Part shown: in pieces, positions 18,479 through 61,949 of the stretch
How positions within the stretch are numbered: the first letter of the stretch is position 1
How the letters are laid out: the number at the start of each line of letters is the position of its first letter
Source of the DNA: an uncultured archaeon
Lineage (GTDB): Archaea > Iainarchaeota > Iainarchaeia > Iainarchaeales > GCA-2688035
Assembly: GCA_964354805.1 (NCBI GenBank)
Contig: CAYHBD010000016.1
Coordinates: 68,532-132,531, forward strand
DNA: 64,000 bases
Direction: 5' to 3'
The notes under the pieces: model-generated
Seen by the model: only the letters and a program-made list of their open reading frames with translations
Told to the model about the DNA's origin: nothing
Database searches by the model: none
Program-made: the position numbers and the translations under genes

Positions 18479-19711
18479 ATGATTTCTCCTAACCTGTGCA
18501 TCAGGTGCAAGGGCAAATTGCTGTGTGGCTTGAGCTACTGCCAGATTCTGCGAAAGTACAGCGAGCAGAGCAGGGCGGTTGCCGAAATTAAGGGCAATCG
18601 CTTCACTGGGAGCAGCCCGCCAAGCATTTTTGTCAGCTGGGGCAACTATCCCAATGTCCAGATCGCTCCCCTAAGTCCTACAGCTGTGATGGACAGCGCT
18701 TTGTTTGATTCTCCGGAGAAATGGTTCGGCCTGCCCCAAGAGCAAATAGTTTCCTTCAGGGAACAACTGCTTAGGAGCAACAAGCGCATCAATGTGAATG
18801 CCGCATCAAAGCCTTCTTATGATTTGTTTGAGATGCAGCAGCTGGTTATGGCTGCAAAGCCGACAGCAATTGACGTGCAGCTGGAGCGCAAGCCAGTTCC
18901 CTTTCTTTCATTCCACGAAAGCGTTGCACCGCTTGGGCCAAGCGCCCCCTTGGTTAAAATGCGTTTGGAAGAGAACCCGAAAATAAACAGAAAAGTTGAC
19001 AAAGCGGTTGCCGATACTGATTTGAAATCAAACGATGCATTGATTTTTTTATACGATGCCGGCTTTCCAATAAGCACTCTGCAAAAGCTGTTAAGCGCGG
19101 GCACGCTCGGCATTGGAAAGAACAGGAAATTTGTCCCAACCAGGTTTTCGATTACCGCTGTTGACACAAATATTGGAACTGAGTTAATAGAGGAAATAAA
19201 AAATTTTCAGCAAATTGGGGAAATCCAGTTTTTTTCATCGGAATATCTTGGAAACAGGTTCTTTATTCTTTTAATCCCTGCTGCTTGGGCTTTTGAGAAT
19301 TTGGAGGCATGGGTTCCTGGCAGCATGTGGTATCAGGAAAAAGACCCATCAAAGATTGCGATAATGCAGGACCACGAATTTTATGATGGGAGAACGGACT
19401 ATGCGGCAAATGTTGAGGGGGCTTATTATTCTGCGAGGTTGGCGGTTTGTGAGTATTTAAAAAAAATAAAGAGACAAGCAGCAGTTCTTGTTTTTCGGGA
19501 GATTACTCCCGAATATAATATTGGGCTTGGGGTTTGGGTAATCAGAGAAACTGTAAGGAACGCGCTTTCAAAGAAACCTTTAACTTTTTCTGATTTAGAG
19601 TTGGCTTTGGCTCTTGTTGAAAGAAAATTGCAGACCCCCTTCAAGCTGTGGAAAAAGGAGAGCAAACTTTTAGATTTTTTGCAACATCAGCGGCGGCTTT
19701 CTGATTTCTGA
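18479..19711 (+). CDS. Archaeal Nre-family (DUF650/DUF651) putative DNA repair protein
   Basis: N-terminal CIRCKGKLLCGLSYC Cys cluster and overall length match Nre proteins as I recall them. Assignment is from memory only. Confidence 0.5.
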   Translation: MISPNLCIRCKGKLLCGLSYCQILRKYSEQSRAVAEIKGNRFTGSSPPSIFVSWGNYPNVQIAPLSPTAVMDSALFDSPEKWFGLPQEQIVSFREQLLRSNKRINVNAASKPSYDLFEMQQLVMAAKPTAIDVQLERKPVPFLSFHESVAPLGPSAPLVKMRLEENPKINRKVDKAVADTDLKSNDALIFLYDAGFPISTLQKLLSAGTLGIGKNRKFVPTRFSITAVDTNIGTELIEEIKNFQQIGEIQFFSSEYLGNRFFILLIPAAWAFENLEAWVPGSMWYQEKDPSKIAIMQDHEFYDGRTDYAANVEGAYYSARLAVCEYLKKIKRQAAVLVFREITPEYNIGLGVWVIRETVRNALSKKPLTFSDLELALALVERKLQTPFKLWKKESKLLDFLQHQRRLSDF

Positions 19712-20978
19712 AAGGAACTTTCCAGCCTGAGATTTCGGGGTTAAATATGTAAACTTCTCTAATTATTGTTCCAAATGATTTCTTTTTACCAAATTCTCTG
19801 CGTTCGGTTGAGATAATGTTTGCTTGTTTTAGAATATCCAAGTAGTGCCTTAAACCGTGGGCCCACCTGCCCCCAAAGCTTTTTAATTTTGCTTCTTTGG
19901 CTAAATATTCTGCAAGTTTATAACGGTGGGTTTCCTTAAGCTGCATTATAGCCAACAAAACTTTTTTCAAGGATACTTTACTGGCTGATTTATGTGGGTA
20001 AACTCTGTCAAAAATATCTATTGCGTCATTTATTGAATTAACTGCCCCCCTATAACCATTTATGGATTCATACAATTTTAACCATTTCTCCGTTTGTGGT
20101 TCAAACAATTGCATCCATTTTATTGTTTCATCCTTTGTTAATGAATTGCTCCAAAACCGCCAATATCTGCCACTTTGCTTTTCCATTTTGTGAAACTTTA
20201 CACCTGTTTGCTCCAGAATTTGACAGATATCCTCTTGAAATTTTTTACTTGCCACACAAAATTCCACCTGGTTTTTCATTCCAACTCCAGCTTCAAAAGT
20301 TAATGCCCCAAGCGCAAATGATTTCCTCAATTCAATGGTCGATTTTTTGATAATTTGAGGTTCATTTACCGTGTAGATTTTATTTCCATTGCAAAACCCA
20401 AATATTTTATGAAGATACCGGCCAAATATTTTATTATTGAATGCAATCGCCCACTCGTGTTCACTTTTGCTGCGAGCAGCATAGCTTAATCCAAACTCTT
20501 TTTCAACCCATTTTCCAAACGCATCTATGTTAGTTTTATGTTCATCAGTAATGCAGAAGAAATTTCCTGCTAATGTGCCATCCGCTGCATGGGCGCCAGC
20601 AATCTTGCAAAGGTTTTTTGTTAAAACTTTCGGTGCTTTAACTACTTTCTCTGGTGGCTGGTTCGTTTTAAGGAATTCTATTTTCTTTTGCACAAAGAAT
20701 CGTTTTTCAGGTTTATTCGCCAAATTTAGCAATTGTTCAATAAAAACTAAAGGATAAAACTCTTTTCTGAGATAAACAATTCTTTCGGCAGTTGGCTTGG
20801 AAATACCAAATTTTTTCATTAAGTGTCTGCAAAGCTTGGCTTTGCTCAATCCTCTTGCTGCAATCTCGTCTATCAATTCACCAAGCGCCTGTTTTAATTC
20901 TTTTCCTTTCCCTGCAATCCATTTTCTCGGCGCGTCATCCAAAAGGGGGTCATGTAATGTAAATAGGTCCAACTGCAT
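19641..20978 (-). CDS. Free-standing HTH-LAGLIDADG-wHTH protein (homing-endonuclease-like), paralog of 50909-52177
   Basis: LAGLIDADG-like motifs LCKIAGAHAADGTL and ALGALTFEAGVG. N-terminal HTH-like LSKAKLCRHLMKKFGISKPTAERIV. Co-linear similarity to ORF 50909-52177 (LDLFTLHDP/FDLFELHDP, EPQIIKKS/EPQIIKHS, NPEISGWKVP/NPNIWEWRAP). Confidence 0.5.
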   Translation of the reverse strand: MQLDLFTLHDPLLDDAPRKWIAGKGKELKQALGELIDEIAARGLSKAKLCRHLMKKFGISKPTAERIVYLRKEFYPLVFIEQLLNLANKPEKRFFVQKKIEFLKTNQPPEKVVKAPKVLTKNLCKIAGAHAADGTLAGNFFCITDEHKTNIDAFGKWVEKEFGLSYAARSKSEHEWAIAFNNKIFGRYLHKIFGFCNGNKIYTVNEPQIIKKSTIELRKSFALGALTFEAGVGMKNQVEFCVASKKFQEDICQILEQTGVKFHKMEKQSGRYWRFWSNSLTKDETIKWMQLFEPQTEKWLKLYESINGYRGAVNSINDAIDIFDRVYPHKSASKVSLKKVLLAIMQLKETHRYKLAEYLAKEAKLKSFGGRWAHGLRHYLDILKQANIISTERREFGKKKSFGTIIREVYIFNPEISGWKVPFRNQKAAADVAKNLKVCSPFSTA

Positions 20979-21178
20979 GCAAACATTGTATTTGACTCTT
21001 TTTAAGCTCCTTTGGAAAGAGTGGAGTTCCGCTGCTGCTTAAAAAGGAAAGCGCTCTGCTTGACAGGCTGCTGCACCAGCGAACACAGGTACAGTTTTCG
21101 TAGGGCTTGTGCGACTTTTATTTTACACCACTTTTTTTAAAGTTGATTGGTGTGCTGTAATATTAGTGAATAAAATCC

Positions 21179-21973
21179 ATGAAAGTATCTGATTGGTATT
21201 TTCTCCCTGCTGGCATCATTTGGATTATTTCAAGTGGTTTTTTGGTTTTGGTTGGTTCTTTTAGTGGGGTTGAACTTTTTTCAATAATGGCTGCGTTAGC
21301 TCTTTTGTGGCGGCATTTTTCAGAGCGGGTTAGATTGGGGTTAACCTCTAAAAAGAAAGCTCGGGCAGTTTTTGTTGTCATAGTGGTATTGTCTGTCGTA
21401 TATATCCTAGTTCTTTTTAATTATGAAAACACAAGAACTCAAACAATACTTGATTTCGTTAAAACTAATTATGGTTTAAACCTAAATAGTGCTAACGCAT
21501 TAACCATATCAGATTGTACCACCGACCAATGCGTCCTTGAAAAGTCAGATGCGTTTTCAAGTTTTTGTAAAAGCGTTTCTGAGGATACCCTTTGTGAGAA
21601 AGCGGGCGTTACAGATTTTTTTCTATCTAATACTTGTGCACGGTTTAAAGCAAATGTTGGGTTTGCCTGCGTTTCTTGGATGCCTGAGACTATTAATGAG
21701 AAATGGGCATGTGGAAAAATAACAGACGTAAAACTGCGTGAAGATTGTATTTTCAAAGCTTTTGAAGTGCAAGGAGACCGCTCTTTATATTGTGACCGAA
21801 AAAAAGCAATTAAGTCCAGCTCTGGGTTTAGCGTGCTTGATGTAACCGTCGAAAAAGCAAGAGAAATCTGTTACCGCTTATTAGCTATGACCGCCAATGA
21901 GAGCAGTTTCTGTAATCAGATATCAAATGAAAGCGAAAAGATGCTTTGTGTTGAGATGTCGAAAATTCAATAA
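21179..21973 (+). CDS. Hypothetical membrane protein with Cys-rich extracytoplasmic domain
   Basis: 264 aa. Three N-terminal TM helices followed by a domain with about 12 Cys. No family recognised. Confidence 0.45.
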   Translation: MKVSDWYFLPAGIIWIISSGFLVLVGSFSGVELFSIMAALALLWRHFSERVRLGLTSKKKARAVFVVIVVLSVVYILVLFNYENTRTQTILDFVKTNYGLNLNSANALTISDCTTDQCVLEKSDAFSSFCKSVSEDTLCEKAGVTDFFLSNTCARFKANVGFACVSWMPETINEKWACGKITDVKLREDCIFKAFEVQGDRSLYCDRKKAIKSSSGFSVLDVTVEKAREICYRLLAMTANESSFCNQISNESEKMLCVEMSKIQ

Positions 21974-32411: not shown

Positions 32412-35400
32412 ATGCCGGAGAAAAGCATTGAATTGAGGGTTGCAGACCCTGACCCAACGCATGTTGGAAGGAACATTGTCACTCTGGACAGGGAGACAAA
32501 GCAGGCGCTTAGCATTACCTCTGGCGACATTGTGGAAGTGGAAGGAACAAAAAAGACCGCCGCAATTGTCTGGCCAGCAAGGGCAGAGGATGAAAGCAAA
32601 AAGATTGTGCGGATGGACAACTTCATCAGGCACAATGCTGGCGTTGGCTTGGGCGAAAAGGTTGCCGTAAGAAAGTGCGAGCCAAAGGAGGCAAAGAAGG
32701 TTGTGCTTGCACCAAGTCAGGAAATTCGCATTATCGCCAGCGGCTTTGAGAGGATTTTGAAGAAGAACTTTTTGGGCAGGCCCCTGACTATTGGGGACAG
32801 CGTTTGGATTAGCGTTTTCGGCAGCGGCTTTGTTTACAGGGTGATTGACACCAACCCGAGAGGCATTGTGAAAGTAACTGATTTCACCCAGTTTTCTTTA
32901 AAGGAAAAGCCAGTGAAGGGCGAGCTTGAGGCAATTCCAAGGATTGCATACGAGGACATTGGCGGCCTTGACGAGCTGATTCAAAAGGTTCGAGAAATGG
33001 TTGAACTGCCGATGAAGCACCCTGAGTTGTTCAGAAGGCTTGGCATTGTTCCGCCCAAGGGCGTTTTATTGCACGGCCCTCCCGGCTGCGGAAAAACACT
33101 GCTTGCAAAAGCTGTTGCAAACGAAACACAGGCGCACTTCATTTCAGTGAATGCCCCTGAAGTAATGTCAAAGTATGTTGGGGAAGCAGAAGAGCGCATT
33201 AGGCAGATGTTCAAGGACGCCGAAGAAAACGCGCCAAGCATTATTTTCATTGACGAGATTGATGCAATCGCGCCAAAAAGAGAGGAAGTGATTGGGGAAG
33301 TGGAGCGAAGGGTTGTTGCCCAGATTCTTGCTTTGATGGATGGCCTTGAGGCAAGGGGCAATGTCATTGTTATTGCTGCGAGTGTAACTGGTGACACTCC
33401 TGTGTTGGTTAAGAAGGGGGGTGTTATTCAACTAGCTACAATTGGGGAAGTGGTTGACCCATATTATGCGGATGGGGGGGAAGGCATCCAAAAAGACGCC
33501 AGCGACTTGGAAGTTCTTGGGATGAAAAAGTTGGTTGCCAAACACAATTTGCCTTGGACTTGCTTTGGTGGAAGCAAATTCCAGCCGGTAAAAGCGGTGT
33601 TTAGGCATAGGGTTGCTGAAATTTATGAAATTGATTTTAATGGCGGAAAAATCAAGACAACCGGCAACCACTCAGTCTTTGTTAGAACTAGGAATGGCAT
33701 TCGGGCTAAAAGAGTTGACGATTTGAGTTTGAATGATGTTTTGGTTGATTTGCCATATAAGGTTAATCGGACTACCCCTGCTAAAATGGAAGTCAGGGCG
33801 CATGAATTCGCTTTGAGTGAAACTCCAATTAAACTTCCAGTTTATGGCAGTGAAGTTCAAGAGATGTATGCATTGGCAGTAGCAAGACAAATTAGTCCAC
33901 AGCAAGTTTCTAAAACAATGGGCGTTCATGTTACAACCGCGTATGGCTGGCAGCGGGGTGACAGAAAGCCAGACTTTTGCAGGTACCACGAGGCAGGCAT
34001 CCCAAACGAAGTAATTATCACGCCTGAATTGATGAAATTGTTTGGATATTATGTTGCCGAAGGTTATGCCAGATCGGAACTTGATTTCTGTTTCGGCGCC
34101 AAGGAGACGCATTTAATTGATGATGTTAGGAGTTCCATGAAATTAGTTTTCAATGTTGAACCTGATTCAATCATTGTTACAAATAATCGTTGTAACATTG
34201 TTTATCACAAAAAACCTTTGGCAGATTTTTTTGCAAGGCATTGCGGTAAGGGTGCCCGCAACAAAAGGCTTGCCTCATTCTTTTTCGAACTACCCAAAGA
34301 ATATTTCCTAAGCTTCTTGCAGGCATACATTGACGGAGATGGTTACGAAGACAAAAACGGAAGGCTGGAGGCAACATCAGTAAGCAAATCGCTTATCTGG
34401 GAACTGAACTGGCTTTGCAGGATGCACGGAATCAAATCCTATATTCACCAGTTTACCGCCAAAGAGGGAAGAACAATTAAAGGCGGAAAACCATTGAAAA
34501 AGACACTCGCATATCGCTTAGGTATCGGGAAAACCAACAATCCGTTCAGACTTTGCAAAAAAGTGCCGGCTCAAGGCTTGGCCAGAATTAAAAAAATCGC
34601 CAAAAAACAGTTTGACGGTTTCGTTTACGACCTGTGCGGTTGTGAAGAGGAAGCATTTTTTGGTGGTGAAGCCCCCATTTTGCTCCACAACACAAACAGG
34701 GTTAATTCAATTGACGAGGCATTGAGAAGGCCGGGCAGATTTGACAGGGAGATAGAGTTCCCTGTTCCTGACAAGGAAGCGAGGAAAGAGATTCTCGCAA
34801 TTCATACAAGGGGAATGCCTATCCACCCGCCGCTTGATTTTGAGTATTTGCGCGAGCTGGCTGAAAAAGAGAACGGCAAGTTTTTGTCAAAGCAAACAAT
34901 GGAGCAATTGGCAAAGCTGGTGAAAAAACCAGGCGATGAAAAAGAATTCTTTGCCTCTTTGGATGAAAAGGCAAAGGCAGAGGTAACAGAAGCCCTCAGG
35001 GACAAAATGCTTGAATACTTTGCTTCAATAACACACGGCTTTGTCGGGGCTGACCTTGCTGCTTTGGCAAAAGAGGCAGCAATGAAGGCGCTGAGGCGCT
35101 ATCTGCCAAAGATTGATTTGGAGGATGAGAAAATCCCCCCTGAATTATTGGAATCAATGGAAGTCAACAAAAGGGATTTCATTAATGGATTGAAGGATGT
35201 TCAGCCAAGCGCACTGAGGGAAGTGACGATTGAAGTTCCGAATGTCAAATGGGGGGACATCGGTGACTTGGAGGATGTAAAAGAGGAACTGAAGCAGGCT
35301 GTTGAATGGCCTTTAAAGCACCCCGACAGCTTTAAAAAAATGGGCATAAGGCCGCCCGCCGGTGTGCTATTGTTCGGGCCGCCTGGTTGCGGAAAAACAC

Positions 35401-36068
35401 TGCTTGCAAAAGCTGTTGCAACTGAAAGCGAGGCAAACTTTATTTCGATCAAGGGCCCGGAACTTTTGTCGCTTTGGGTTGGAGAATCGGAAAGAGGAGT
35501 TCGAAAGGTTTTCAGGAGAGCGCGGCAGGTTGCCCCCTGCATTGTTTTCTTTGACGAAATTGATTCAATTGCAGGCAGAAGAGGCATGGGCGCAGACAGC
35601 CATGTGACAGAAAGGGTTGTAAACCAGCTGCTTACAGAATTGGATGGAATTGAGCAGAACAGAAACGTTGTTTTTCTGGCTGCAACAAACAGGCCTGACC
35701 TGCTCGATCCTGGCCTGCTTAGGCCAGGCAGAATAGACAAGCTGATTAAGATTGATGCACCGGATGAAAAAGGCAGGCTTGCAATATTCAAGGTTCACAC
35801 AAAGAATGTCAGCCTTGCAAAGGATGTTTCTCTTGAAGAGCTTGCAAAGAAAACAGCCGGCTTCAGCGGAGCAGACATTGAAGGGCTTGTAAGGGAGGCA
35901 GCTTTGATTGCATTGAAGGAAAACAAGCTGGTTCCAAAGCCAGTTGAAAAAACTCACCTTGAGCAAGCGCTTGCGGAAGCGAAAGCAAGCATTTCCCCAA
36001 AGGTTGAAGAAGCATACGAAGAATTCGAAGAGCACCTCAGCGAATTCAAGCCGAGCTACGTTGGTTAG
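32412..36068 (+). CDS. cdc48: CDC48/VCP-like AAA+ ATPase (two AAA domains) interrupted by an intein in D1
   Basis: CDC48 N-domain. D1 Walker [16 protein letters not shown] and Walker [12 protein letters not shown]2 [15 protein letters not shown] and [10 protein letters not shown]. The conserved VIVIAATNRP is split as VIVIAA|S...HN|TNR. Confidence 0.92.
33381..34691 (+). mobile_element. Intein (437 aa) with LAGLIDADG homing-endonuclease domain, inserted at the sensor-1 ATN motif of CDC48 D1
   Basis: Block [11 protein letters not shown] (Ser1), block [20 protein letters not shown] motifs [11 protein letters not shown] and [12 protein letters not shown]-terminal FVYDLCG...ILLHN followed by the +1 Thr. 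Removing 33381-34691 restores [27 protein letters not shown]. Confidence 0.85.
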
Positions 36069-49872: not shown

Positions 49873-50316
49873 TTACCGCTTTCTCCCCATTATCATTACC
49901 GCATCTTGTATATCCCCAAAATAAGCGCCGAATTCATGTAACAGATCTTCAGTTTTGTGTAACCCCAATGTTATCGGGTTTGTATTAATTACGCTTGTCA
50001 TTTGTCCTCTCTTAACAAAATATTCCCCGCAAAGAACAGCCAGTTCGTATTTTCCTTCCCATATTTGTTTTCTCCTTTCCAAAAATTCGTCACGTTTCCT
50101 TTTGAGAACCGATAAATCTTTTTCTTCAAAGCAATCAACTGAGTATGCTTTGACATCGGTCCCAAGTTTTTCAGTAGCAGTTATCAATGCAGCAGCTTTT
50201 TGTCGCATTGTCCTCATTACGGCGATTTTCTTTGCCGTCGACAGGTTGAGGAATTTTTTTGAAAGCAAATTTCTTGGAACTCTCCTGATGTAATTCCTTT
50301 TCTGCATAAAAATCAC
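49873..50316 (-). CDS. Hypothetical protein
   Basis: 147-aa ORF upstream of the NTase gene on the same strand. No motif recognised (no HEPN Rx4-6H). Confidence 0.35.
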   Translation of the reverse strand: MIFMQKRNYIRRVPRNLLSKKFLNLSTAKKIAVMRTMRQKAAALITATEKLGTDVKAYSVDCFEEKDLSVLKRKRDEFLERRKQIWEGKYELAVLCGEYFVKRGQMTSVINTNPITLGLHKTEDLLHEFGAYFGDIQDAVMIMGRKR

Positions 50317-50510
50317 TAGTGGCTCAGCTGTATTTTCACGACATCGTTCATTTTCAAAGCATGTTCTTTCCCTAATTTTTGTTTGCTTCTTCTTTTGAGT
50401 GCATCTATTCTATAGATGGGTTTAACTCTTTAAATTAGTTTCTAAAACGCCCTTGTCAATTTTTGTTTTCATCTCATCACCTCCCTTGGATTGAATTTTT
50501 TCTTAGGACT

Positions 50511-50588
50511 CTGCTTTTCTCGGCTTAAACCTTTCCCTGCCTTATTGCAGGTCGGCTTCGCCTAAAGGTTTAATGCCTCCAAAAGCAG
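50511..50588. ncRNA. Candidate structured RNA/DNA element (nested perfect stems); strand undetermined
   Basis: CTGCTTTT (50511-18) pairs with AAAAGCAG (50581-88). GGC (50522-24) pairs with GCC (50575-77). TTAAACCTTT (50525-34) pairs with AAAGGTTTAA (50564-73). Inner hairpins are CCTGC-cttatt-GCAGG and GGC-ttc-GCC. Confidence 0.35.
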
Positions 50589-50631
50589 CAGAGACGTCCA
50601 CGAAAAAATTCATTAAATTGGAGGTGATTCG

Positions 50632-50775
50632 ATGGATTTCAAAAAATTCGATTTTCCTCTTCCAACAGAGGAGGAAATAAGGGTTGTAAAAGAGATAGCA
50701 AAAGTTGCTTCAGAGGAGCTGGATGGAAGGGATATGTGGATTTTGCGGGAGTTCTTGGAGAGTGATTCCGAATGA
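50632..50775 (+). CDS. Small acidic ORF (47 aa) with strong Shine-Dalgarno
   Basis: GGAGGTGAttcgATG. Translation MDFKKFDFPLPTEEEIRVVKEIAKVASEELDGRDMWILREFLESDSE. No family recognised. Confidence 0.3.
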   Translation: MDFKKFDFPLPTEEEIRVVKEIAKVASEELDGRDMWILREFLESDSE

Positions 50776-50908
50776 ATCACTCTTCTTCCACTTCCACAGG
50801 AAATCTTTCCGCATGCGCAGCTGACAGCGGAAGTTTTCATAAGGAAAAAGCAGCGGAAGCCCGCTCTCTTCCAAGGGTGTTTATAATGAGAAAAAAGGGG
50901 GTTTTATT

Positions 50909-52177
50909 ATGGGTGTTGAGGAGTTAGACTTTGATTTATTCGAATTGCATGATCCAAAAGACGACAAAAAGCCGTATTTTTGGACGAAAATTGGAGGCAA
51001 AGAGATTCAATCACTATTCGAAGATTTAGTTAATAATATTTGTAAAACAAAAAATGTGAATAAAAATGAGCTGGCTAAAGAATTAAGCAAAGAGCTGGGT
51101 TGCTGTGTTTCACTTTTGCAAAAATATTTTTATTCCAAAAGGGATCTTTATCCAATCCCTTTAATCAACCGATTACTAGACCTGCTTGAGAATGAAAATA
51201 AAAAAATGCAAATGAAAAGTTTATTTTCTAAAAAGATTGAATACTTAAAGATCGGGGGCTCTAGCCAAAGACAAAGGGCGGTTAAATATTTGACGCCAGA
51301 ACAGGCAAAACTTTGCGGAGCAATTGTTGCCGATGGGTGTTTAGTAAAATCTAAAGTTGGAGAGCACGGGATTGTCATTAGGGATTATTACAAGAAAGCA
51401 TTAGCAAAGACAAACGCTTGGTTCAACCAAGCCCTTGGCATTTCTTCTGTTGTGAGAAAGGACAAAGGGAAACCAAGCCATTTTCTAAAAATCGATAACA
51501 AAATTGCTGCAAATTTTTTTAACAAATTTTTTGAGATACCATTTGGAAAAAAATCAGCAATTGTTAAGGAACCACAGATAATTAAACATTCCCCATACAG
51601 GCTAGACTTTGCAGAAGGGGCACTTCTGTTTGATGGAAGTGTTGAGTTGGACTACCTGGTTTCCTATGGGACAATCAGTAAAAAGTTAGCAGAAGATTTG
51701 CTCGAAATTCTAACCCTAAATGGCTTTGAAATTGAATTAAGATATTTCAAAACAACTGGTCTGTATAGATTACGAACTAAAAGATTAACAAGGGAGCAAA
51801 CAGACAAATGGATTGCCTTTTTTGGCAAAGACACTGAGAAAGGCAGTAAGCTTTATCAAATGACTTACGGCTTTCCAAATAGGGTGGGCTCTGTGGGTTA
51901 TTTCATGTTTGCAATTTCAAATTTCTGCAATTTTGCAAACAGTTCAAAGATTTCAATTAAAGACGTCTTCGCCGCAATAAAAGAAAATAATTGCGTAACA
52001 AAGGCGACTTTGAAAGATATTCTAAGAATTGGAACAAGCACTCTTTACAAATATTTATGGATCCTAGAAAAAACAAACTCAATCAAAGCTGAAAAATTTA
52101 ATGGCGGTGAAAATAGAGAAAACAAATATTCTTACAATCCAAATATTTGGGAATGGCGTGCGCCATCAAAGCTTTAA
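50909..52177 (+). CDS. Free-standing HTH-LAGLIDADG-wHTH protein, paralog of 19641-20978
   Basis: LAGLIDADG-like motifs LCGAIVADGCL and AEGALLFDGSV. N-terminal HTH-like NKNELAKELSKELGCCVSLLQKYF. C-terminal wHTH-like ATLKDILRIGTSTLYKYLWILEK. Confidence 0.5.
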   Translation: MGVEELDFDLFELHDPKDDKKPYFWTKIGGKEIQSLFEDLVNNICKTKNVNKNELAKELSKELGCCVSLLQKYFYSKRDLYPIPLINRLLDLLENENKKMQMKSLFSKKIEYLKIGGSSQRQRAVKYLTPEQAKLCGAIVADGCLVKSKVGEHGIVIRDYYKKALAKTNAWFNQALGISSVVRKDKGKPSHFLKIDNKIAANFFNKFFEIPFGKKSAIVKEPQIIKHSPYRLDFAEGALLFDGSVELDYLVSYGTISKKLAEDLLEILTLNGFEIELRYFKTTGLYRLRTKRLTREQTDKWIAFFGKDTEKGSKLYQMTYGFPNRVGSVGYFMFAISNFCNFANSSKISIKDVFAAIKENNCVTKATLKDILRIGTSTLYKYLWILEKTNSIKAEKFNGGENRENKYSYNPNIWEWRAPSKL

Positions 52178-53358
52178 TGCTTAAGTAGAATCTTGATCAC
52201 ATCATCATATCGCAATTCATATTCGTCAGAAATTTTTTGGCCTGTTCTGCAATTGATGGCCCCCATATACCTATCCAAAAAACTGCTGTGGACTTTGCCA
52301 GCTAAATCTTTTGTAGTGCTCCCTTTTTTCATTAGATATGCATCTGGAAGAACCTGCCCTTGCCCATTAGCCAGTTTATGCTGGTCCTCTACAGGATAAA
52401 CAACAATCAGCTTTAGCAGTTCAAAAGCTGTTTTATTAATTGCCTGCTGAACCCCTGTGCTGCCCCAAACATCCAGCATATGCGTTTGAATAAAGTCAAG
52501 CGCGTGCTTCTGCTGTTCATTCATGTTGCCCTTTGCACTAAACTCTTTCGCACCAGGAACATAATCAATCAATCCAGTCCTTGCAGCTTTCCTCAGCGTT
52601 AACTCTGCTTCAGCGCAGCATGGCACAAAAATCTTTTCTGGGAATTCCTTTTTCAATTTTTCAAAGTTCTCTTTTGCCTGGGGCAAATCCATTTTGTTGC
52701 ATGCAATCAGCATTGGCTTGCTCCTCTGCCTTATTGCTGACGCAAACCTAAGCACTTCCTCTTCATTCCACTCGCTTGGCTTTGGGCCGAAATGCTCGCT
52801 TTCAAAAACATCTTTCACCTGTCCTTCACCCATTCCAAGCCCGCTTAACTGATCTGCAATCGGCTCCCAGGGCTTGCTGCTTGCTGTAGCGCCCTTGCTT
52901 ATCTTTGCCCAGTTCTTTTCCAAAATCCCGCGCACCCAGTAATCAATCTCTTTCTCCAAAAACCTGACATCGTTTGCAGGATCATGACCTTTTGCCGGAT
53001 TTCCCTCTGCATCAGTTGTGCCGCTGCAATCCAAAACATGAATCAGTGCAGCTGCCTGCATTAAATCGTTCATAAACTGGTTGCCCAATCCCTTGCCCTG
53101 CCATGCTCCCTCGATCAATCCCGCAACATCCAGCAAAGTTGCGGGAATCAGCCGAATGCCATTCTCGCATTTGCTGTTCTGGGGCATGCACTGCTTTCCA
53201 AACTCAGGGTGCACGCATTTTGCCGTAACATACCCAGTTCCTTGGTTCGGCTTTATTGTTACAAAAGGCCTGTTTCCAATCTCAGCATCAACAAGCGAGG
53301 CAGCGCTGAAAAAGGTAGTTTTTCCGGTGTTTGTTTTTCCAACAATTCCAATCTGCAT
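52174..53358 (-). CDS. ychF: YchF/OLA1-type P-loop GTPase/ATPase with C-terminal TGS domain
   Basis: G1 IGIVGKTNTGKTT, G3 LLDVAGL, G4 ACNKMD, and a TGS-like C-terminus. Confidence 0.8.
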   Translation of the reverse strand: MQIGIVGKTNTGKTTFFSAASLVDAEIGNRPFVTIKPNQGTGYVTAKCVHPEFGKQCMPQNSKCENGIRLIPATLLDVAGLIEGAWQGKGLGNQFMNDLMQAAALIHVLDCSGTTDAEGNPAKGHDPANDVRFLEKEIDYWVRGILEKNWAKISKGATASSKPWEPIADQLSGLGMGEGQVKDVFESEHFGPKPSEWNEEEVLRFASAIRQRSKPMLIACNKMDLPQAKENFEKLKKEFPEKIFVPCCAEAELTLRKAARTGLIDYVPGAKEFSAKGNMNEQQKHALDFIQTHMLDVWGSTGVQQAINKTAFELLKLIVVYPVEDQHKLANGQGQVLPDAYLMKKGSTTKDLAGKVHSSFLDRYMGAINCRTGQKISDEYELRYDDVIKILLKH

Positions 53359-57639: not shown

Positions 57640-59286
57640 TCAAACTTCCATTTCAAGCACCGCTGTCGGCATCTGCAAACCGAAATTCTGCAGAACAGCT
57701 TTGCTAACCTCTCCAAGCAAACCCTTTTTGTTCCCGATTTTTATTGCAGCACTTTTTCCCGCAACAAATGCGGCATTATTCAATTCCTGCAGCTCATACT
57801 GCAATCCAAGGTGCTCTGCTATTGCCTGCAGCACGCTCTTTATCACTGTGAATTCCGCTTCCTTGCCGCACAATGCAATGCAGAGTTTGGTTTTTTCCGC
57901 AACAGCTGTTTCGCTTTTTGGCTCCAATTCAACCGTTTTTCCCAATTCAAAAATCTTCTGTGGATATGCATAGTGCTTGTTTGCTGCAAGGAAATCAAGC
58001 AGCTCTGGGAACAGATGCTTTCTGAAAACAGTGTAGCTCAGGCTCACTGGGTTTGCCAACTCGACAAACTGTTCTTTCTCCGCATCCAATCCAATCATTG
58101 CAGCCTGCTTTTCCTTGTTTGTCATTGTGTAAGTAAGCACTTCCTGCAGGCCAAGCCCAATGCACACTTCTCTCACCAAATCGATTTGCCTTGTTTCATC
58201 CCTCTCCTTTCCAACTGTTGCAAGCTTTATCTGCAAAGGCTGGATTTTGTTATAGCCGTAAGAAATCAAAACATCCTCAATCACATCAACAGGGTGCAGA
58301 ATGTCCTGCCTGTACGCCGGATAAGCGCATTCAAGCATTGCCCCTTTTTCTTTTACCTCATACCTTGCCTTCTGCAGCAATTCGATTATTTCCTTATTTC
58401 CCAAATCCAACCCGCTGAATTCCTTAATATCCTGAATTTTTACATTCACTTTTTTCGGCGAAAAATCAGGCGTTTCAATTTTCTTGTTCGGATAGCGAAC
58501 CGCAACACTGTAAATGCTGAAACCCCTTTCTGCAAGCGCCGACACCATTACATTCAAAGCAGTGTTAACCGTTTCCTGCTCAAAGCCTGTTACCTCAACC
58601 AGCATCTCTTTTGTTGCCTCGCTTACTTTTCCGGTGAGCTGGGAATTAATTATTGGCGGCATTGATGCAACAACCAGATTGCTGTCCTCAAGGATTGGGA
58701 ACCTGTCACTGCCCTGCAACAGGTGCGCGTACTCTTTCCCTGTCGGATGCTCCTGCAATATCTCCAGCAAATCCATTTCAACCTTGTACTCCAGTGGAAT
58801 GAATTTTTTCTCCCTTGGCTTATATGCGCGATAGTGCATTGGAGGTAGTAGCTTGCTCCAGTCATACAATCCAATTGCTGCCTCTTTTCTTTTCCTTCCA
58901 AAAGTCAGGCAGACCTTTTCCTGAAGCTGAATCATCTGCACAAGGAATTCCTCTGTCACTTTCACATTTTTCACAATTGCAGCAGCAATGCACGGCCTGA
59001 CGCCTGCAACGCTTTTGTCAACAATCAATTCAACCCCGCTTTTCTTTACAGAATATTTTGGAATTCCCCTTTCTTTGGTAAGCCTGCCTCTCAATTCGCG
59101 GGCAATTCCCTCAGCGCTGAGCAAATCTGGCCTGTTTGAGTCCTTTACCTCGACAGTAATGCTATCCCCCTCGGCAGAATCCACCTCGCTTTTCGCATAC
59201 ATTACAGCCTCTTTGAATTCAGCAAGCGAAAGCTTTTTTCCAACCAGCTTCTGCATGTCACGCAAGCTGACATTTACGTTTGGCAT
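57640..59286 (-). CDS. pheT: Phenylalanyl-tRNA synthetase beta subunit (archaeal type)
   Basis: Start at ATG 59284-59286 (MPNVNVSLRDMQKLVGKKLS...), typical of the archaeal PheT N-terminus, with B3/4 and B5 domains. The upstream 38 codons of the track ORF overlap the neighbouring gene. Confidence 0.9.
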   Translation of the reverse strand: MPNVNVSLRDMQKLVGKKLSLAEFKEAVMYAKSEVDSAEGDSITVEVKDSNRPDLLSAEGIARELRGRLTKERGIPKYSVKKSGVELIVDKSVAGVRPCIAAAIVKNVKVTEEFLVQMIQLQEKVCLTFGRKRKEAAIGLYDWSKLLPPMHYRAYKPREKKFIPLEYKVEMDLLEILQEHPTGKEYAHLLQGSDRFPILEDSNLVVASMPPIINSQLTGKVSEATKEMLVEVTGFEQETVNTALNVMVSALAERGFSIYSVAVRYPNKKIETPDFSPKKVNVKIQDIKEFSGLDLGNKEIIELLQKARYEVKEKGAMLECAYPAYRQDILHPVDVIEDVLISYGYNKIQPLQIKLATVGKERDETRQIDLVREVCIGLGLQEVLTYTMTNKEKQAAMIGLDAEKEQFVELANPVSLSYTVFRKHLFPELLDFLAANKHYAYPQKIFELGKTVELEPKSETAVAEKTKLCIALCGKEAEFTVIKSVLQAIAEHLGLQYELQELNNAAFVAGKSAAIKIGNKKGLLGEVSKAVLQNFGLQMPTAVLEMEV

Positions 59287-59287
59287 T

Positions 59288-60283
59288 TCACTCAACCCTT
59301 CCTTTTTGAAATTCTTTTTTGCATAGCGGGCATTTGTAGCGCCGATATTTTCTATTCTCTTGCTTTGTAAAACCGTTTCTCCAAACTTTTTTGTGTCCAC
59401 AATGAATGCAGGGAATATCTATTGTGCCCAAATTTTTCTTTTTTAAAAGTTTTTTCTCATCATTACTCTTTTCATATTTTATAATGCGTAATTTAGCCTC
59501 CCGCTTTTCTTCATGTTTAGAAAAAGGCAATAATGTGTCTGCTAACTTTACAATATCCTTATGGTTCGTCATCATAACCCGGTATAAGTCAAAGTTGCAC
59601 TTCCGTGTCCCATAAACGCCTTTTTTTCTAACCAAATAAAGATGCGAGTTAAACCCAAGCCCTTTTAGTTTTTGATTAATCTGTTCCAAAATTGTTTTAT
59701 CACAGGTGCCCAGACTAAAAACAAGATCTTTCCATTTCCCGCCGTATTTCTTATGTTCGGTTATTATCCAGCTGGCTTCACTGTCACAGTACCCCGCTAA
59801 AAACGAGTAGAATGCCCCTTCGTCATTTAAGATCCAATCCGGAATTGATTTTGGTTTTTCTATTAAAAAGTCAAATGAAGGGTGCAGATAACAATTTATT
59901 TTTCGGCTTTTCTCGGTAAAGCCCCCCTTTGCCTCGTATTCATTGACATGAGAATATTTTTCAAAGGCATCTCTAAACATTTGCATTTGCGCTTTTTTTG
60001 GGGATGTAGTGCAGGCAACTACTAACCTGCAGTGTTTTTGGGCACTAACATCACCGGTTCTTAATCCAATTAAATATGCTTTTTCAATTAAGTTTCCGTC
60101 GAATGTGTGTCTTGTGAGATTTTTTCTGTCAGACGGTCGCCTAGCCACCTTGAATCGTTCCATATGGTAGGCAATACTCCCTTTGGATTTCATGCCGTAC
60201 ATTTTTGCAATCTTGAAAAGGGAAAGTTCTTTTTTCCAATACAAATCCTCCAACACTTCTTTTGATATTTCTTCTCTATTCAT
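59288..60283 (-). CDS. Free-standing LAGLIDADG homing-endonuclease-like protein with N-terminal HTH and C-terminal zinc ribbon
   Basis: Motifs AYLIGLRTGDVSA and FLAGYCDSEASW. C-terminal CIHCGHKKV...YKCPLCKKEF. SD GGTGGGAG lies 4 nt before the ATG. The stop lies 1 nt before the pheT ATG. Confidence 0.6.
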   Translation of the reverse strand: MNREEISKEVLEDLYWKKELSLFKIAKMYGMKSKGSIAYHMERFKVARRPSDRKNLTRHTFDGNLIEKAYLIGLRTGDVSAQKHCRLVVACTTSPKKAQMQMFRDAFEKYSHVNEYEAKGGFTEKSRKINCYLHPSFDFLIEKPKSIPDWILNDEGAFYSFLAGYCDSEASWIITEHKKYGGKWKDLVFSLGTCDKTILEQINQKLKGLGFNSHLYLVRKKGVYGTRKCNFDLYRVMMTNHKDIVKLADTLLPFSKHEEKREAKLRIIKYEKSNDEKKLLKKKNLGTIDIPCIHCGHKKVWRNGFTKQENRKYRRYKCPLCKKEFQKGRVE

Positions 60284-60479: not shown

Positions 60480-61949
60480 TTAATTCGTCACCATTGGCGC
60501 GTTTCTCAACCATTGCAGGTCTTTGCTAAACAATTGCCGTATGTCTTCAATGCCCAGCTTAATCATCGCCAGCCTATCTACACCAATGCCCCATGCTATT
60601 ACTGGTTCTTTAATTCCCAAAGGCAGAGTAAGCTCTGGCCTGAAAATTCCTGCGCCAGCTACCTCCATCCAACCAATCTTTGGGTGTTCAATGTAAAGTT
60701 CGCAACTTGGTTCGGTGAAAGGGAAGTACCCACTTGTGAATTTTACTTTTTTTGCTCCAGCCATTTCAATTGCAAGTTGTTTTAAAATGCCAAGCAAGTG
60801 CCTAAATGTCAGGCTTTTGTCTATTATTATTCCTTCTAACTGATTAAATTCAATCAAGTGCCGTGCGTCAACTATATCGGGTCTGTAACATCTTGCAATC
60901 GTAAAGTATTTTCCCGGCACTTCAACTCCTTCTACAAGCTGCCTTGCACTGTGGGCAGTCCCGTGTGCAGCCGGCATCAACCTGCTTGCAATCTGTTCGC
61001 TCCACTTATAGCGCCATCCCCTGCTTCCAGTGCCTGCCCCATTCTCGTGCGCTGCCTTCACTCTTTCAACAATTTTTTTGTCAGGCAGCTTTCCGAATTT
61101 CGGCTGCTTTAATTGGTAAGTGTCAGTCCAGCTTCTTGCAGGATGATTCTGCGGCTGGAAGAGAGCATCAAAGTTGTAGAATTCCTGCACAATAAGCCTT
61201 TCCTGCATTTCCTGAAAGCCAAGAGAAACAAGCTTTCTCCTCAACTGGTTCAGGAACTGCACATAGGGCTGCCTTTTTCCGATAATTATTTTCGGGACAG
61301 CGCCCTCAATATTGTACGTTCTTTCCTTTACATCGGCAAGCAATTGCAATGCCTCTTCCCCTGATTTGTTCAGCCTTGCTTTCTCTTCAGTTTTTTCAAT
61401 TCTTTCAACCAGGCTCCTCCTCATTGCCTCGCTTAATGCTGCATTCTCTTCCTTCCCAAGCTCTTCCCCTGAAGAGATTTTTTTCAGCAGCCCTTCCACC
61501 ACATACTTTCCTTCAATCAGCTGTTTTTCCAATCCTGTGAATTCAAGCATTGTTTCCTCGCCAGGCATTACGCTCACCCAGGCATTCCTTTTTGTAATTC
61601 CCATTGCAACATTTAGCTCCGGGGCATTCAGGCTGCTTTTGCCCTTAACCTGCTGCAGTGTTCCCTTGCCCCCTAGCGCCTGCAGTGCCTCAACGAACAA
61701 TCTTTCAGGCAGGCCGTTGCCCAAGCTGGTTTTTCCCATCGCTGTTAGAACAAGCAGGCTTTTCTTTTCCTCACTTAATTCAATCAGGCCCTTCTCCTTG
61801 AGCCACTGCACCGCCCTCCTCACGCTGTCAATGGGCAGGTCGCTTTCCTTGCTTATCCCTTCCGCTCCCTTAAAGCTGCCGCTGTCAAGTGCCCTCAGTG
61901 TTCTTGCCTCGATTTCGCTCAGGCTCTGTACTGTTTTTTGTAAATCCAC
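60480..61949 (-). CDS. pheS: Phenylalanyl-tRNA synthetase alpha subunit (archaeal/eukaryal type)
   Basis: 489 aa. N-terminal wHTH repeats and class II motifs (FQPQNHPARS, YFPFTEPS, GIGVDRLAM). Confidence 0.92.
   Translation of the reverse strand: MDLQKTVQSLSEIEARTLRALDSGSFKGAEGISKESDLPIDSVRRAVQWLKEKGLIELSEEKKSLLVLTAMGKTSLGNGLPERLFVEALQALGGKGTLQQVKGKSSLNAPELNVAMGITKRNAWVSVMPGEETMLEFTGLEKQLIEGKYVVEGLLKKISSGEELGKEENAALSEAMRRSLVERIEKTEEKARLNKSGEEALQLLADVKERTYNIEGAVPKIIIGKRQPYVQFLNQLRRKLVSLGFQEMQERLIVQEFYNFDALFQPQNHPARSWTDTYQLKQPKFGKLPDKKIVERVKAAHENGAGTGSRGWRYKWSEQIASRLMPAAHGTAHSARQLVEGVEVPGKYFTIARCYRPDIVDARHLIEFNQLEGIIIDKSLTFRHLLGILKQLAIEMAGAKKVKFTSGYFPFTEPSCELYIEHPKIGWMEVAGAGIFRPELTLPLGIKEPVIAWGIGVDRLAMIKLGIEDIRQLFSKDLQWLRNAPMVTN

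What the first reader, a model, noticed from the sequence alone, without database searches (positions are those of the whole stretch)
19641..20978. Paralogous free-standing HTH-LAGLIDADG-wHTH proteins (two copies 30 kb apart)
ORFs 19641-20978 (445 aa) and 50909-52177 (422 aa) are co-linear paralogs. Shared landmarks in order are:
- LDLF(T/E)LHDP at the N-terminus
- an HTH-like segment
- KKIE(F/Y)LK
- LAGLIDADG motif 1 (IAGAHAADGTL / CGAIVADGCL)
- EPQIIK(K/H)S
- motif 2 (GALTFEAGVG / GALLFDGSVE)
- a C-terminal wHTH-like region
- NP(E/N)I.(G/E)W(K/R).P near the end
The acidic residues of both motifs are retained, so nuclease activity is possible. Neither copy is inside an intron or intein. Both lie next to non-core genes. 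Counting the intein and the pheS-pheT gene, this 64-kb window holds four LAGLIDADG modules. The 3' end of 19641-20978 overlaps the convergent Nre-like gene by 71 nt.
Basis: partly seen in the sequence, partly recalled or inferred. Interest (0 to 1): 0.6.

Follow-up and report, generated by a model that had tools for sequence, protein, structure and literature searches.

The report
Homing-endonuclease cassettes replacing two gene tails
The two paralogous genes encode intact LAGLIDADG DNA-cutting enzymes that belong to selfish cassettes: each cassette has entered the 3' end of a housekeeping gene (nre, or an Obg-like GTPase gene), supplied a foreign replacement tail for that gene, and left the original tail as a dead relic beyond the endonuclease gene, an element type so far described in fungal mitochondria rather than in archaeal chromosomes.

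Summary
**Observation confirmed.**
- ORF A (19641-20978, minus strand, 445 aa) and ORF B (50909-52177, plus strand, 422 aa) are co-linear paralogs (30% identity, E 5e-49).
- The AlphaFold model has pLDDT 90. It shows an N-terminal HTH, a double-motif LAGLIDADG core closest to archaeal intein endonucleases, and a PadR-like winged helix.
- D133, K200 and E229 are invariant or nearly so across the family.

- Subfamily A abuts the 3' end of nre in all 22 loci with enough flank. Subfamily B abuts the 3' end of a YGR210-like GTPase gene in all 9 loci.
- Both are patchy: A occurs in about 10 of 215 species genomes of the phylum. Close relatives have empty sites. Pseudogenes, a remnant and unrelated LAGLIDADG genes occur at the same nre site.
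- The window holds relics of the native gene tails just beyond each endonuclease gene. The nre relic is at 21017-21103. The GTPase relic is at 50316-50429 and matches the tail of the empty-site ortholog at 24 of 27 residues.
- The resident tails are divergent. For nre the resident tail is also AT-rich, like the endonuclease gene.

**Verdict.** These are mobile endonuclease cassettes that carry a replacement gene tail, the mORF or "gene hybrid" type. Cleavage activity and the exact target site are inferred, not shown.

First readers of this scan noted the same family in two other genomes.

The parts
18479..19711 (+). nre (NreA-like) host gene, a mosaic of a native 5' part and a foreign 3' part
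   Evidence: Pfam Nre_N E 6e-91 and Nre_C E 3e-38. GC3 falls from 0.72 to 0.3-0.45 along the gene, and the two halves are 0.57 and 0.41, the largest split of any gene in the window. CTG makes up 9 of 25 Leu codons in codons 1-250 but 1 of 20 afterwards. In the C-part tree the stem of (G000, G001, G011) is 0.47, against 0.076 in the N-part tree.
19466..19711 (+). Minimal replacement (cassette-borne) tail of nre. The upstream limit is inferred, and the compositional shift starts near 18960.
   Evidence: The longest relics in homologous loci begin at Nre residues about 337-343, at the motif RFIT(D/N)EY..PLGVWV (L021, L018). The window's own relic proves only that the last 28 codons were replaced.
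19641..20978 (-). Endonuclease gene A (445 aa): HTH, double-motif LAGLIDADG core and winged helix
   Evidence: The AF2 model has pLDDT 90.2. Foldseek matches intein and intron LAGLIDADG enzymes. The family profile matches the TliVMA intein in PDB at E 2.5e-10. The wHTH is supported. GC3 is 0.33 against 0.45-0.53 for host genes.
20999..21005 (-). TATA-like box (TTAAAAA) 21-27 nt upstream of the start codon of A; candidate promoter (inference only)
   Evidence: Read directly from the sequence. Not tested.
21017..21103 (+). Relic of the native nre tail (28 codons plus TAG): KSGVPLLLKKESALLDRLLHQRTQVQFS*
   Evidence: The tail HMM hit covers positions 72-91 and ends at a stop. The BLOSUM62 local score is 73 against the Nre tail of relative G018, reached by 0 of 2000 shuffles. 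The relic is on the nre strand, 38 nt beyond the start of A. Its GC3 is 0.57, host-like, against about 0.41 for the 3' half of the gene.
52174..53358 (-). YGR210-like Obg-family GTPase host gene, a mosaic
   Evidence: Pfam YGR210-like_G4 E 2e-37, MMR_HSR1 and TGS. Identity to the empty-site ortholog G012 is 84% (289/345) over residues 1-345 but 44% (20/45) over residues 350-394.
52174..52325 (-). Replacement (cassette-borne) tail of the GTPase gene, about the last 45-50 codons. The junction lies near 52300-52340 and is inferred from the identity drop.
   Evidence: The relic in G140 (L071) covers the homologous residues about 340-393.
50909..52177 (+). Endonuclease gene B (422 aa), paralog of A
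   Evidence: LAGLIDADG_3 scores 22.8 bits. GC3 is 0.33. The gene overlaps the GTPase stop by 4 nt.
50430..50908 (+). 5' flank of B inside the cassette (479 nt, no assigned function)
   Evidence: It lies between the relic and the start of B.
50316..50429 (-). Relic of the native GTPase tail: ..IDALKRRSKQKLGKEHALKMNDVVKIQLSH*
   Evidence: Tail HMM E 2.2e-7 over positions 91-120, on the GTPase strand, ending in a stop. 24 of 27 residues are identical to the tail of the G012 ortholog, whose site is empty. The resident tail instead reads GQKISDEYELRYDDVIKILLKH.

Best explanation
A and B are the endonuclease genes of two paralogous mobile cassettes. They are of the 'mobile ORF plus replacement gene tail' kind (mORF, or gene hybrid).

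**What each cassette holds.**
- A recoded, foreign copy of the last roughly 45-85 or more codons of a conserved host gene: nre for subfamily A, a YGR210-like Obg GTPase gene for subfamily B.
- A gene for a monomeric double-motif LAGLIDADG endonuclease that is extended by an N-terminal HTH and a C-terminal winged helix.

**Proposed cycle (inferred).**
1. The enzyme cuts cassette-free alleles inside the conserved 3' coding region. For nre this is probably at or near the codons for the RFIT(D/P)EY..PLGVWV.RE block. For the GTPase it is near residue 340.
2. The break is repaired from a cassette-bearing allele.
3. This copies in the endonuclease gene together with its tail. The host protein stays complete, and recoding of the site presumably makes the new allele immune to cutting.
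4. Co-conversion extends a variable distance upstream.
5. The original tail, now cut off from its gene, is left beyond the endonuclease gene and decays.

**Shown here:** the fold and conserved catalytic residues, site fidelity, patchiness with empty sites, decay products, mosaic host genes, and relics of native tails.

**Inferred:** cleavage activity, the exact target, immunity of the recoded tail, and how DNA passes between cells.
For: **1. The enzyme looks intact.**
- The LAGLIDADG fold is predicted at pLDDT 90. Foldseek gives TliVMA intein E 7e-10, I-Tsp061I TM 0.68 and I-DmoI TM about 0.65. The family profile matches PDB at E 2.5e-10.
- D133-G134 and K200 are invariant, and E229 is conserved in at least 90% of 22 sequences at 31-67% identity.
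- WhiA, the domesticated relative, lacks these residues (PMC3384342).

**2. Site fidelity.**
- A is next to the 3' end of nre in every locus with enough flank, convergent in most and tandem in 7.
- B is next to the 3' end of the GTPase gene in the window, L009-L013 and G123, G136 and G140.

**3. Patchy distribution with empty sites.**
- Strong A matches occur in about 10 of 215 species genomes of the phylum, while nre is in 39 of 41 relatives.
- In relatives, nre and rfcS are 11-33 nt apart or overlap (G009, G002, G035, G022).
- Empty B sites occur in G009 and G012.

**4. Decay and turnover.**
- A is a pseudogene in G095/L031, and other subfamilies have broken copies.
- A 51-codon remnant of a different LAGLIDADG gene lies in G011 (E 2e-17).
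- Two other LAGLIDADG genes occupy the same nre site in G007 and G017.

**5. Relics of native tails beyond the endonuclease gene, on the host gene's strand, each ending at a stop.**
- nre relics: window 21017-21103; L018 (E 8e-22, 13 nt after the stop of A); L021 (8e-26); L030 (2e-20); L020 (1e-9); L019 (3e-5).
- GTPase relics: window 50316-50429 (E 2e-7, 24/27 identical to the G012 tail); L071 (3e-18).

**6. Mosaic host genes.**
- Identity of the GTPase to G012 drops from 84% to 44% at about residue 345.
- nre GC3 falls towards the endonuclease gene in occupied loci (median +0.18) but not in empty ones (median -0.01). Mann-Whitney p is 0.001 for all loci and 1.7e-4 for the GC-rich subset. The switch is abrupt in L016, L027 and L015.
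- In L021 the relic has GC3 0.51, equal to the 5' part of nre, while the resident tail has 0.35.

**7. Foreign composition.** A and B have GC3 0.33 against 0.45-0.53 for host genes.

**8. One phylogenetic conflict between A and Nre.** L020 and L025 are sisters in the A tree (100/100). The Nre tree rejects that pairing (AU p 0.011), and the A tree rejects the Nre clade (p 0.001).
Against: - No biochemical evidence for cleavage exists, and the target site is only inferred from where the relics begin.
- The A and Nre trees mostly agree locally, and the AU test does not reject monophyly of the Iainarchaeales copies of A (p 0.65). Much of the history may therefore be vertical descent with losses, and current mobility is unproven.
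- The clades tested for conflict were chosen after the trees were seen.
- A occurs in two orientations relative to nre. Simple homing would not produce that, so at least two orientation changes are needed.
- The GC3 gradient is not convincing for the GTPase gene.
- The loci compared are related to each other, so the p-values overstate the support.
- The window's nre relic is short: 28 codons, HMM E 0.11 on its own.
- No relic was found in G001, the closest A-bearing relative, nor for other subfamilies.
- No copy was found on viral contigs that could act as a vector.
Confidence: 0.8

Rival explanations
1. Fossil cassettes. The architecture arose by homing in the past, but the copies in this genome no longer move. 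The proteins are either inert passengers or kept for some other reason.
For: The A and Nre trees are largely congruent, and the AU test does not reject a single Iainarchaeales clade. The window's relics are eroded to 28-37 codons. Pseudogenes show that decay is common.
Against: Both ORFs are intact, with invariant catalytic residues and a confident fold. A is better conserved across phyla than Nre, for example 54% against 39% identity and patristic ratios of 0.45-0.5. That points to continued selection on the element or to recent transfer.
Confidence: 0.12
2. A domesticated LAGLIDADG protein that works with its neighbour. It could be a repair nuclease partnered with the PCNA-binding repair protein NreA, or a regulator of the adjacent gene. 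Adjacency would then reflect function rather than homing.
For: The A-nre pairing is strict in either orientation. Sequence conservation is high. Two extra DNA-binding domains are present. NreA is a DNA-repair factor (PMC4929162, listed; I read only the title and abstract).
Against: - Only about 5% of genomes in the phylum have A, although nearly all have nre.
- Paralogous subfamilies pair with unrelated genes: GTPase, TYW1/AMMECR1, ilvD, aroA/aroC, gatD/gatE and a class II aaRS.
- Unrelated LAGLIDADG genes occupy the same nre site.
- Functional coupling does not predict relics and foreign tails.
Confidence: 0.05
3. A WhiA-like transcription factor: a LAGLIDADG scaffold used only for binding, with the HTH domains doing the work.
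For: Foldseek hits WhiA (8dy9_I E 3e-6, 3hyi E 8.5e-6). The LAGLIDADG-plus-HTH architecture is shared.
Against: WhiA lacks the acidic and basic active-site residues and is a universal single-copy gene in its lineage (PMC3384342). Here D133, K200 and E229 are conserved and the distribution is patchy. Only 1 of 22 members gives a marginal Pfam LAGLIDADG_WhiA hit (E 0.032).
Confidence: 0.03

Closest known systems
Fungal mitochondrial mobile ORFs (mORFs) that form 'gene hybrids': Allomyces macrogynus atp6; Glomus sp. atp6, atp9, cox2, nad3 (PMC3630166)
   Same: An endonuclease ORF is inserted in the 3' part of a conserved gene. It brings a foreign in-frame C-terminus that replaces the native one. 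The native C-terminus is left downstream of the ORF as a relic that resembles the tails of close relatives. Three of the four Glomus elements also encode LAGLIDADG enzymes.
   Different: - The hosts here are chromosomes of DPANN archaea, not mitochondrial genomes.
- The endonuclease gene is a separate gene, often on the opposite strand (convergent, sharing 0-71 nt with the host gene's end). It is not in phase or co-transcribed with the host gene.
- The enzyme is about 430 aa, with an added N-terminal HTH and a C-terminal winged helix.
- The targets are nre and an Obg-like GTPase gene.
Archaeal intein-associated LAGLIDADG endonuclease domains (TliVMA and PhoVMA inteins 7qsu/7qss/7qst, PI-PfuI 1dq3, PI-PkoII 2cw7)
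   Same: These are the closest matches in both sequence and structure (profile E 2.5e-10, Foldseek E 7e-10). Blocks C, D and E, with the D...K...D/E active-site residues, align.
   Different: There are no Hint or splicing blocks, and the gene has its own start and stop codons. The extra DNA-binding domains are HTH and wHTH rather than the intein's DNA-recognition region or stirrup.
Free-standing homing endonucleases of T-even phages (seg and mob genes; 'intronless homing')
   Same: The genes stand alone between or beside conserved genes. They spread with co-conversion of flanking markers, and the donor is protected by sequence differences rather than by a splicing element. This comparison rests on my own knowledge.
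   Different: The phage enzymes are GIY-YIG or HNH, not LAGLIDADG. They carry no replacement gene tail and leave no relic. They sit in phage genomes, not cellular chromosomes.
WhiA/DUF199 (domesticated LAGLIDADG scaffold plus HTH)
   Same: A monomeric LAGLIDADG scaffold is fused to a helix-turn-helix domain, and the structural similarity is detectable.
   Different: WhiA has lost its catalytic residues and is a universal regulator in Gram-positive bacteria (PMC3384342). The family here keeps those residues and is patchy and site-bound.

Membership tests
Monomeric double-motif LAGLIDADG homing endonucleases | [quoted passage not shown] | tested here: met
   The AF2 model has pLDDT 90.2 and pTM 0.87. 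Foldseek gives I-Tsp061I TM 0.68, I-DmoI TM about 0.65 and TliVMA intein E 7e-10.
Monomeric double-motif LAGLIDADG homing endonucleases | An acidic residue at the end of each motif, plus a conserved active-site lysine | tested here: met
   D133 is invariant. E229 is conserved in at least 90% of sequences (D in B). K200 is invariant and aligns with the intein block D lysine.
Monomeric double-motif LAGLIDADG homing endonucleases | Site-specific double-strand cleavage of the element-free allele | not testable with these tools
   This needs purified protein and substrate DNA.
Monomeric double-motif LAGLIDADG homing endonucleases | Presence/absence polymorphism at one fixed genomic site, with degenerate copies | tested here: met
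mORF / gene-hybrid mobile endonuclease elements | The endonuclease ORF is inserted in the 3' part of a conserved host gene | tested here: met
   A is at the nre 3' end in all 22 loci, and B is at the GTPase 3' end in all 9 loci.
mORF / gene-hybrid mobile endonuclease elements | An inserted foreign C-terminus, in frame, replaces the native one | tested here: met
   Identity of the GTPase to its ortholog drops from 84% to 44% at about residue 345. The nre tail shows a GC3 and codon-usage switch and a long C-part stem.
mORF / gene-hybrid mobile endonuclease elements | A relic of the native C-terminus lies beyond the ORF and resembles the tails of close relatives | tested here: met
   Window relics lie at 21017-21103 and 50316-50429. 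Further relics are in L018, L019, L020, L021, L030 and L071. The B relic matches the G012 tail at 24 of 27 residues.
mORF / gene-hybrid mobile endonuclease elements | The ORF is in phase or co-transcribed with the host gene (as in Glomus atp6 and nad3) | tested here: not met
   A and B are on the opposite strand to their host genes in the window. In tandem loci a spacer of about 60-290 nt separates the nre stop from the start of A.
Intein-encoded endonucleases | Flanking Hint (protein-splicing) blocks inside a host protein | tested here: not met
   Pfam and NCBIfam find no Hint or intein domain. The ORFs have their own start and stop codons.
WhiA/DUF199 | Loss of catalytic residues, and universal single-copy presence in the lineage | tested here: not met
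   The catalytic residues are conserved. Only about 10 of 215 genomes have A.

The most novel reading that the evidence does not exclude
The HTH-LAGLIDADG-wHTH superfamily has 182 clusters at 50% identity with E <= 1e-30 and 1364 with E <= 1e-3. It may be a general chromosome-invading system of DPANN and neighbouring archaea. In this reading each subfamily is dedicated to the tail, or to the boundary, of one housekeeping gene. By carrying replacement tails, the cassettes would move pieces of core genes between phyla, making core proteins such as Nre and the Obg-like GTPase routine mosaics. The two added DNA-binding domains would lengthen the recognition site and allow retargeting to new genes.
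Probability: 0.45. Interest if true: 0.75.

Novelty: new variant of a known kind. Interest (0 to 1): 0.62.

Why it matters
- **New setting for a known element type.** Mobile endonuclease ORFs that bring a spare gene tail are known from fungal mitochondria. My literature searches found no description of them in archaeal chromosomes, and none of a LAGLIDADG family tied to nre or to an Obg-like GTPase gene.
- **Annotation and phylogeny.** Core genes of ultra-small archaea can be chimeras whose 3' parts come from other lineages. This matters for marker-gene trees and for reading codon-usage anomalies.
- **Unannotated family explained.** Hundreds of 'hypothetical' proteins with no Pfam or NCBIfam model now have a likely role.
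- **Possible tool enzymes.** The family offers compact, natural endonucleases with two accessory DNA-binding domains and defined, conserved candidate targets. These could interest people who engineer meganucleases.

Tried and rejected
- **Pfam and NCBIfam.** Neither names the family. Only sub-threshold or borderline LAGLIDADG_3 hits appear.
- **Viral contigs.** A scan of IMG/VR found no relative.
- **Broad horizontal transfer of A.** The AU test does not reject monophyly of the Iainarchaeales copies (p 0.65). Only the L020/L025 conflict is supported. Patristic-distance ratios between A and Nre vary from 0.2 to 1.6 and are suggestive, not decisive.
- **GC3 gradient in the GTPase gene.** It is not distinguishable from empty-site orthologs.
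- **Relics in other loci.** None was found for other subfamilies (aaRS, TYW1/AMMECR1, ilvD, aroA/aroC, gatD/gatE), for pheS/pheT in the window, or for the G007 and G017 nre loci.
- **The pheS-pheT ORF (59288-60283).** It cannot be tied to this family.
- **The 71-nt overlap with nre.** I considered a functional or antisense role and rejected it. The overlap ranges from 0 to 71 nt among homologs and involves only a disordered, non-conserved extension.
Full report
**1. The observation**

- ORF A (19641-20978, minus strand, 445 aa) and ORF B (50909-52177, plus strand, 422 aa) exist as described.
- They align over their whole length at 30% identity, E 5e-49.
- A overlaps convergent nre (18479-19711; Nre_N E 6e-91, Nre_C E 3e-38) by 71 nt.
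- B overlaps a convergent YGR210-like Obg-family GTPase gene (52174-53358) by 4 nt.
- Pfam and NCBIfam do not name either protein. B reaches LAGLIDADG_3 at 22.8 bits.

**2. The protein**

- A search of 5.8 billion proteins found 106 relatives of A. They are 39-67% identical, almost all 420-450 aa, and come from DPANN archaea.
- Invariant or nearly invariant residues in 22 aligned sequences:
  - D133-G134 at the end of motif 1 (CKIAGAHAADGT).
  - K200 and P207 (G.K.YTV.EP.IIK).
  - E229 at the end of motif 2 (ALGALTFEAGVG; D in B).
  - The N-terminal LDLF.LHD motif and the C-terminal W..P motif.
- The family profile matches the endonuclease domains of Thermococcus VMA inteins (E 2.5e-10) and PI-PfuI (1e-6). 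Motif 1, the block-D lysine and motif 2 all align.
- The AlphaFold model is confident (pLDDT 90.2, pTM 0.87). Only residues 427-445, the part that overlaps nre, are disordered.
- Foldseek returns intein and intron LAGLIDADG enzymes: TliVMA E 7e-10, I-Tsp061I TM 0.68, I-DmoI TM about 0.65. WhiA follows further down.
- The C-terminal 147 residues, modelled alone (pLDDT 91.6), match PadR-type winged helices and TFIIE (E about 0.01, TM about 0.5).
- The N-terminal HTH rests on two things. One is the helix pattern in the model (H46-57, H61-68). The other is Cro/C1- and XRE-type HTH annotations in relatives.
- WhiA, the known domesticated LAGLIDADG-plus-HTH regulator, has lost the acidic and basic active-site residues (PMC3384342). 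This family keeps them.

**3. Context: each subfamily is bound to one host gene**

- In three distant homologs of A (39-53% identity) the only shared neighbour is nre, tail to tail.
- I scanned one genome per species and ran tblastn on all loci. A lies at the 3' end of nre in every locus with enough flank. It is convergent in the window and about 14 loci, and tandem (nre then A) in 7 loci.
- B and its relatives are always tail to tail with the GTPase gene: the window, L009-L013, and G123, G136 and G140.
- More distant members lie in other positions:
  - between TYW1 and AMMECR1;
  - in front of ilvD;
  - between aroA and aroC;
  - between gatD and gatE (this copy is broken);
  - tail to tail with a class II aminoacyl-tRNA synthetase gene.
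- The profile finds 182 clusters (at 50% identity) with E <= 1e-30, and 1364 with E <= 1e-3.

**4. Patchiness, empty sites, decay**

- Among 215 species genomes of the phylum, strong A matches occur in about 10, spread over five families. One is a pseudogene with four stops.
- nre is present in 39 of 41 relatives.
- In these relatives nre and rfcS are convergent neighbours. The space between them holds one of the following:
  - nothing (11-33 nt or an overlap: G009, G002, G035, G022);
  - A (G000, G001, G122, G148; decayed in G095);
  - a different 338-aa LAGLIDADG gene (G007; LAGLIDADG_3 E 5e-18);
  - a 423-aa protein with the same architecture that only profile-profile comparison links to A (G017; hhalign E 8.7e-5 over 290 co-linear columns; ArsR-type wHTH E 2e-9);
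  - unrelated genes.
- G011 keeps a 51-codon remnant of the 338-aa gene (E 2e-17).
- G009 and G012, whose GTPase orthologs are 73-79% identical to the window's, have empty B sites with the same flanking genes.

**5. Relics and mosaic host genes: the decisive evidence**

Earlier notes of this scan on other genomes prompted me to look for displaced native gene tails.

*Evidence from nre*
- A profile of the last 92 Nre residues finds second, 5'-truncated copies of the nre tail. They lie beyond the endonuclease gene, on the nre strand, and each runs exactly to a stop codon:

| Locus | E-value | Note |
|---|---|---|
| L018 | 8e-22 | 13 nt after the stop of A |
| L021 | 8e-26 | |
| L030/G148 | 2e-20 | |
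| L020 | 1e-9 | |
| L019 | 3e-5 | |
| G095 | 0.013 | |

- In L021 the relic has GC3 0.51, like the 5' part of nre (0.51). The resident tail has 0.35, closer to the endonuclease gene (0.23) than to the 5' part of nre.
- In the window, 38 nt beyond the start codon of A, the plus strand at 21017-21103 reads KSGVPLLLKKESALLDRLLHQRTQVQFS*.
  - It scores 73 against the Nre tail of relative G018, reached by 0 of 2000 shuffles.
  - It is closer to the KKESALLD..LHQR-type tails of G018 and G022 than to the window's own resident tail (KKESKLLDFLQHQRRLSDF).
  - Its GC3 is 0.57, with host-like CTG leucine codons.

*Evidence from the GTPase gene*
- The minus strand at 50316-50429 reads ..KQKLGKEHALKMNDVVKIQLSH* (HMM E 2e-7).
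- It matches the tail of the empty-site ortholog G012 at 24 of 27 residues. The resident tail reads GQKISDEYELRYDDVIKILLKH.
- Identity of the window's GTPase to G012 is 84% over residues 1-345 and 44% over residues 350-394.
- G140 has a 54-residue relic (E 3e-18).

*Composition*
- The halves of nre in the window have GC3 0.57 and 0.41, the largest split of any gene here. A and B have 0.33 against 0.45-0.53 for host genes.
- Across loci, nre GC3 falls towards the endonuclease gene where one is present (median +0.18). It does not fall where the site is empty (median -0.01). Mann-Whitney p is 0.001 for all loci, but the loci are not independent.
- The switch point differs between lineages, as co-conversion tracts would.
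- In a tree of the Nre C-terminal part, the stem of (G000, G001, G011) is six times longer than in the N-terminal part.

**6. Interpretation**

- These features are the defining ones of the mobile-ORF 'gene hybrids' of fungal mitochondria. There, an endonuclease ORF enters the 3' part of a gene with a foreign C-terminus and leaves the native C-terminus downstream (PMC3630166).
- I conclude that A and B are the endonucleases of two paralogous cassettes of that kind, one in nre and one in the GTPase gene.
- The relics' 5' limits place the insertion point, and so probably the cleavage site, in two regions:
  - at or upstream of the conserved RFIT(D/P)EY..PLGVWV.RE block of Nre (homologous resident sequence about 19466-19525);
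  - near residue 340 of the GTPase (about 52300-52340).
The conserved core of A ends within 4 nt of the nre stop, and the rest is a disordered read-through.

**7. Limits**

- Cleavage, target, immunity and the route of DNA exchange are all inferred.
- The A and Nre trees agree in most local clusters, and the AU test does not reject one Iainarchaeales clade (p 0.65). The only supported conflict involves L020 and L025, and I chose those groups after seeing the trees.
- A therefore may be inherited vertically for long periods, with frequent loss.
- The two orientations of A need at least two rearrangements.
- No relic was found in G001 or for other subfamilies.
- No relative was found on viral contigs.

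**8. Novelty**

- Full-text searches for free-standing LAGLIDADG genes in archaea or DPANN found nothing describing this family or this element type in archaeal chromosomes.
- First readers of this scan noted the same family in two other genomes (e1-4800619, e1-2460575). Follow-up agents described analogous cassettes at other genes.
- Those are unpublished AI notes. I tested their leads here on this window and its relatives.

Noticed in passing
window 32412-36068 (+): The CDC48/AAA ATPase gene carries an intein (residues about 343-760) with a LAGLIDADG_3 endonuclease domain. The intein has GC3 0.42, against 0.54 and 0.48 for the exteins.
   Followed up: partly
window 59288-60283 (-): A 331-aa AT-rich ORF (GC3 0.38) lies between pheS (60480-61949) and pheT (57640-59400) and overlaps the start of pheT by 113 nt. 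Its LAGLIDADG_3 hit is below threshold (20.1 bits), and it shows no profile similarity to family A/B. The 3' half of pheS also drops in GC3 (0.54 to 0.45). No relic was found.
   Followed up: partly
window 21179-21973 (+) and 49873-50316 (-): Two AT-rich ORFs lie just outside the relics. One is 264 aa, Cys-rich, with 2 transmembrane segments at the N-terminus and a weak Saf_2TM hit (GC3 0.32). The other is 147 aa with no family (GC3 0.37). They are probably separate insertions at the same variable spots.
   Followed up: no
G000:C35 (L003 1168-2244) and G000:C18 (L004 205-1215): The same genome holds two more free-standing LAGLIDADG genes (358 aa and 336 aa). Many relatives hold 3-7 such genes each.
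   Followed up: partly
L041, L050, L053 (G004, G016, G020): In three relatives an alpha/beta-hydrolase gene directly follows nre, in the position where A sits in the window. Their Nre tails resemble the window's resident ('foreign-type') tail, which may mark former cassette carriers.
   Followed up: no
L062 4261-5472 (G023): A 403-aa protein with LAGLIDADG_3 and a Cro/C1 HTH sits directly upstream of the GTPase gene, where rfcL lies in other genomes.
   Followed up: no
relatives: Relatives carry two types of YGR210-like GTPase, about 61-79% and about 45% identical to the window's. G027 has both. B-like genes in G123, G136 and G140 sit beside GTPase genes that score much lower against the window's than the empty-site orthologs do (E 1e-94 to 1e-115 against about 1e-200).
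   Followed up: no
L039 2612-2716 vs L044 2202-2330: The sequence just upstream of A in G001 resembles the N-terminal extension of the unrelated 338-aa LAGLIDADG ORF of G007 (46% identity over 35 aa, E 3e-4). This may be a shared flank or promoter.
   Followed up: no
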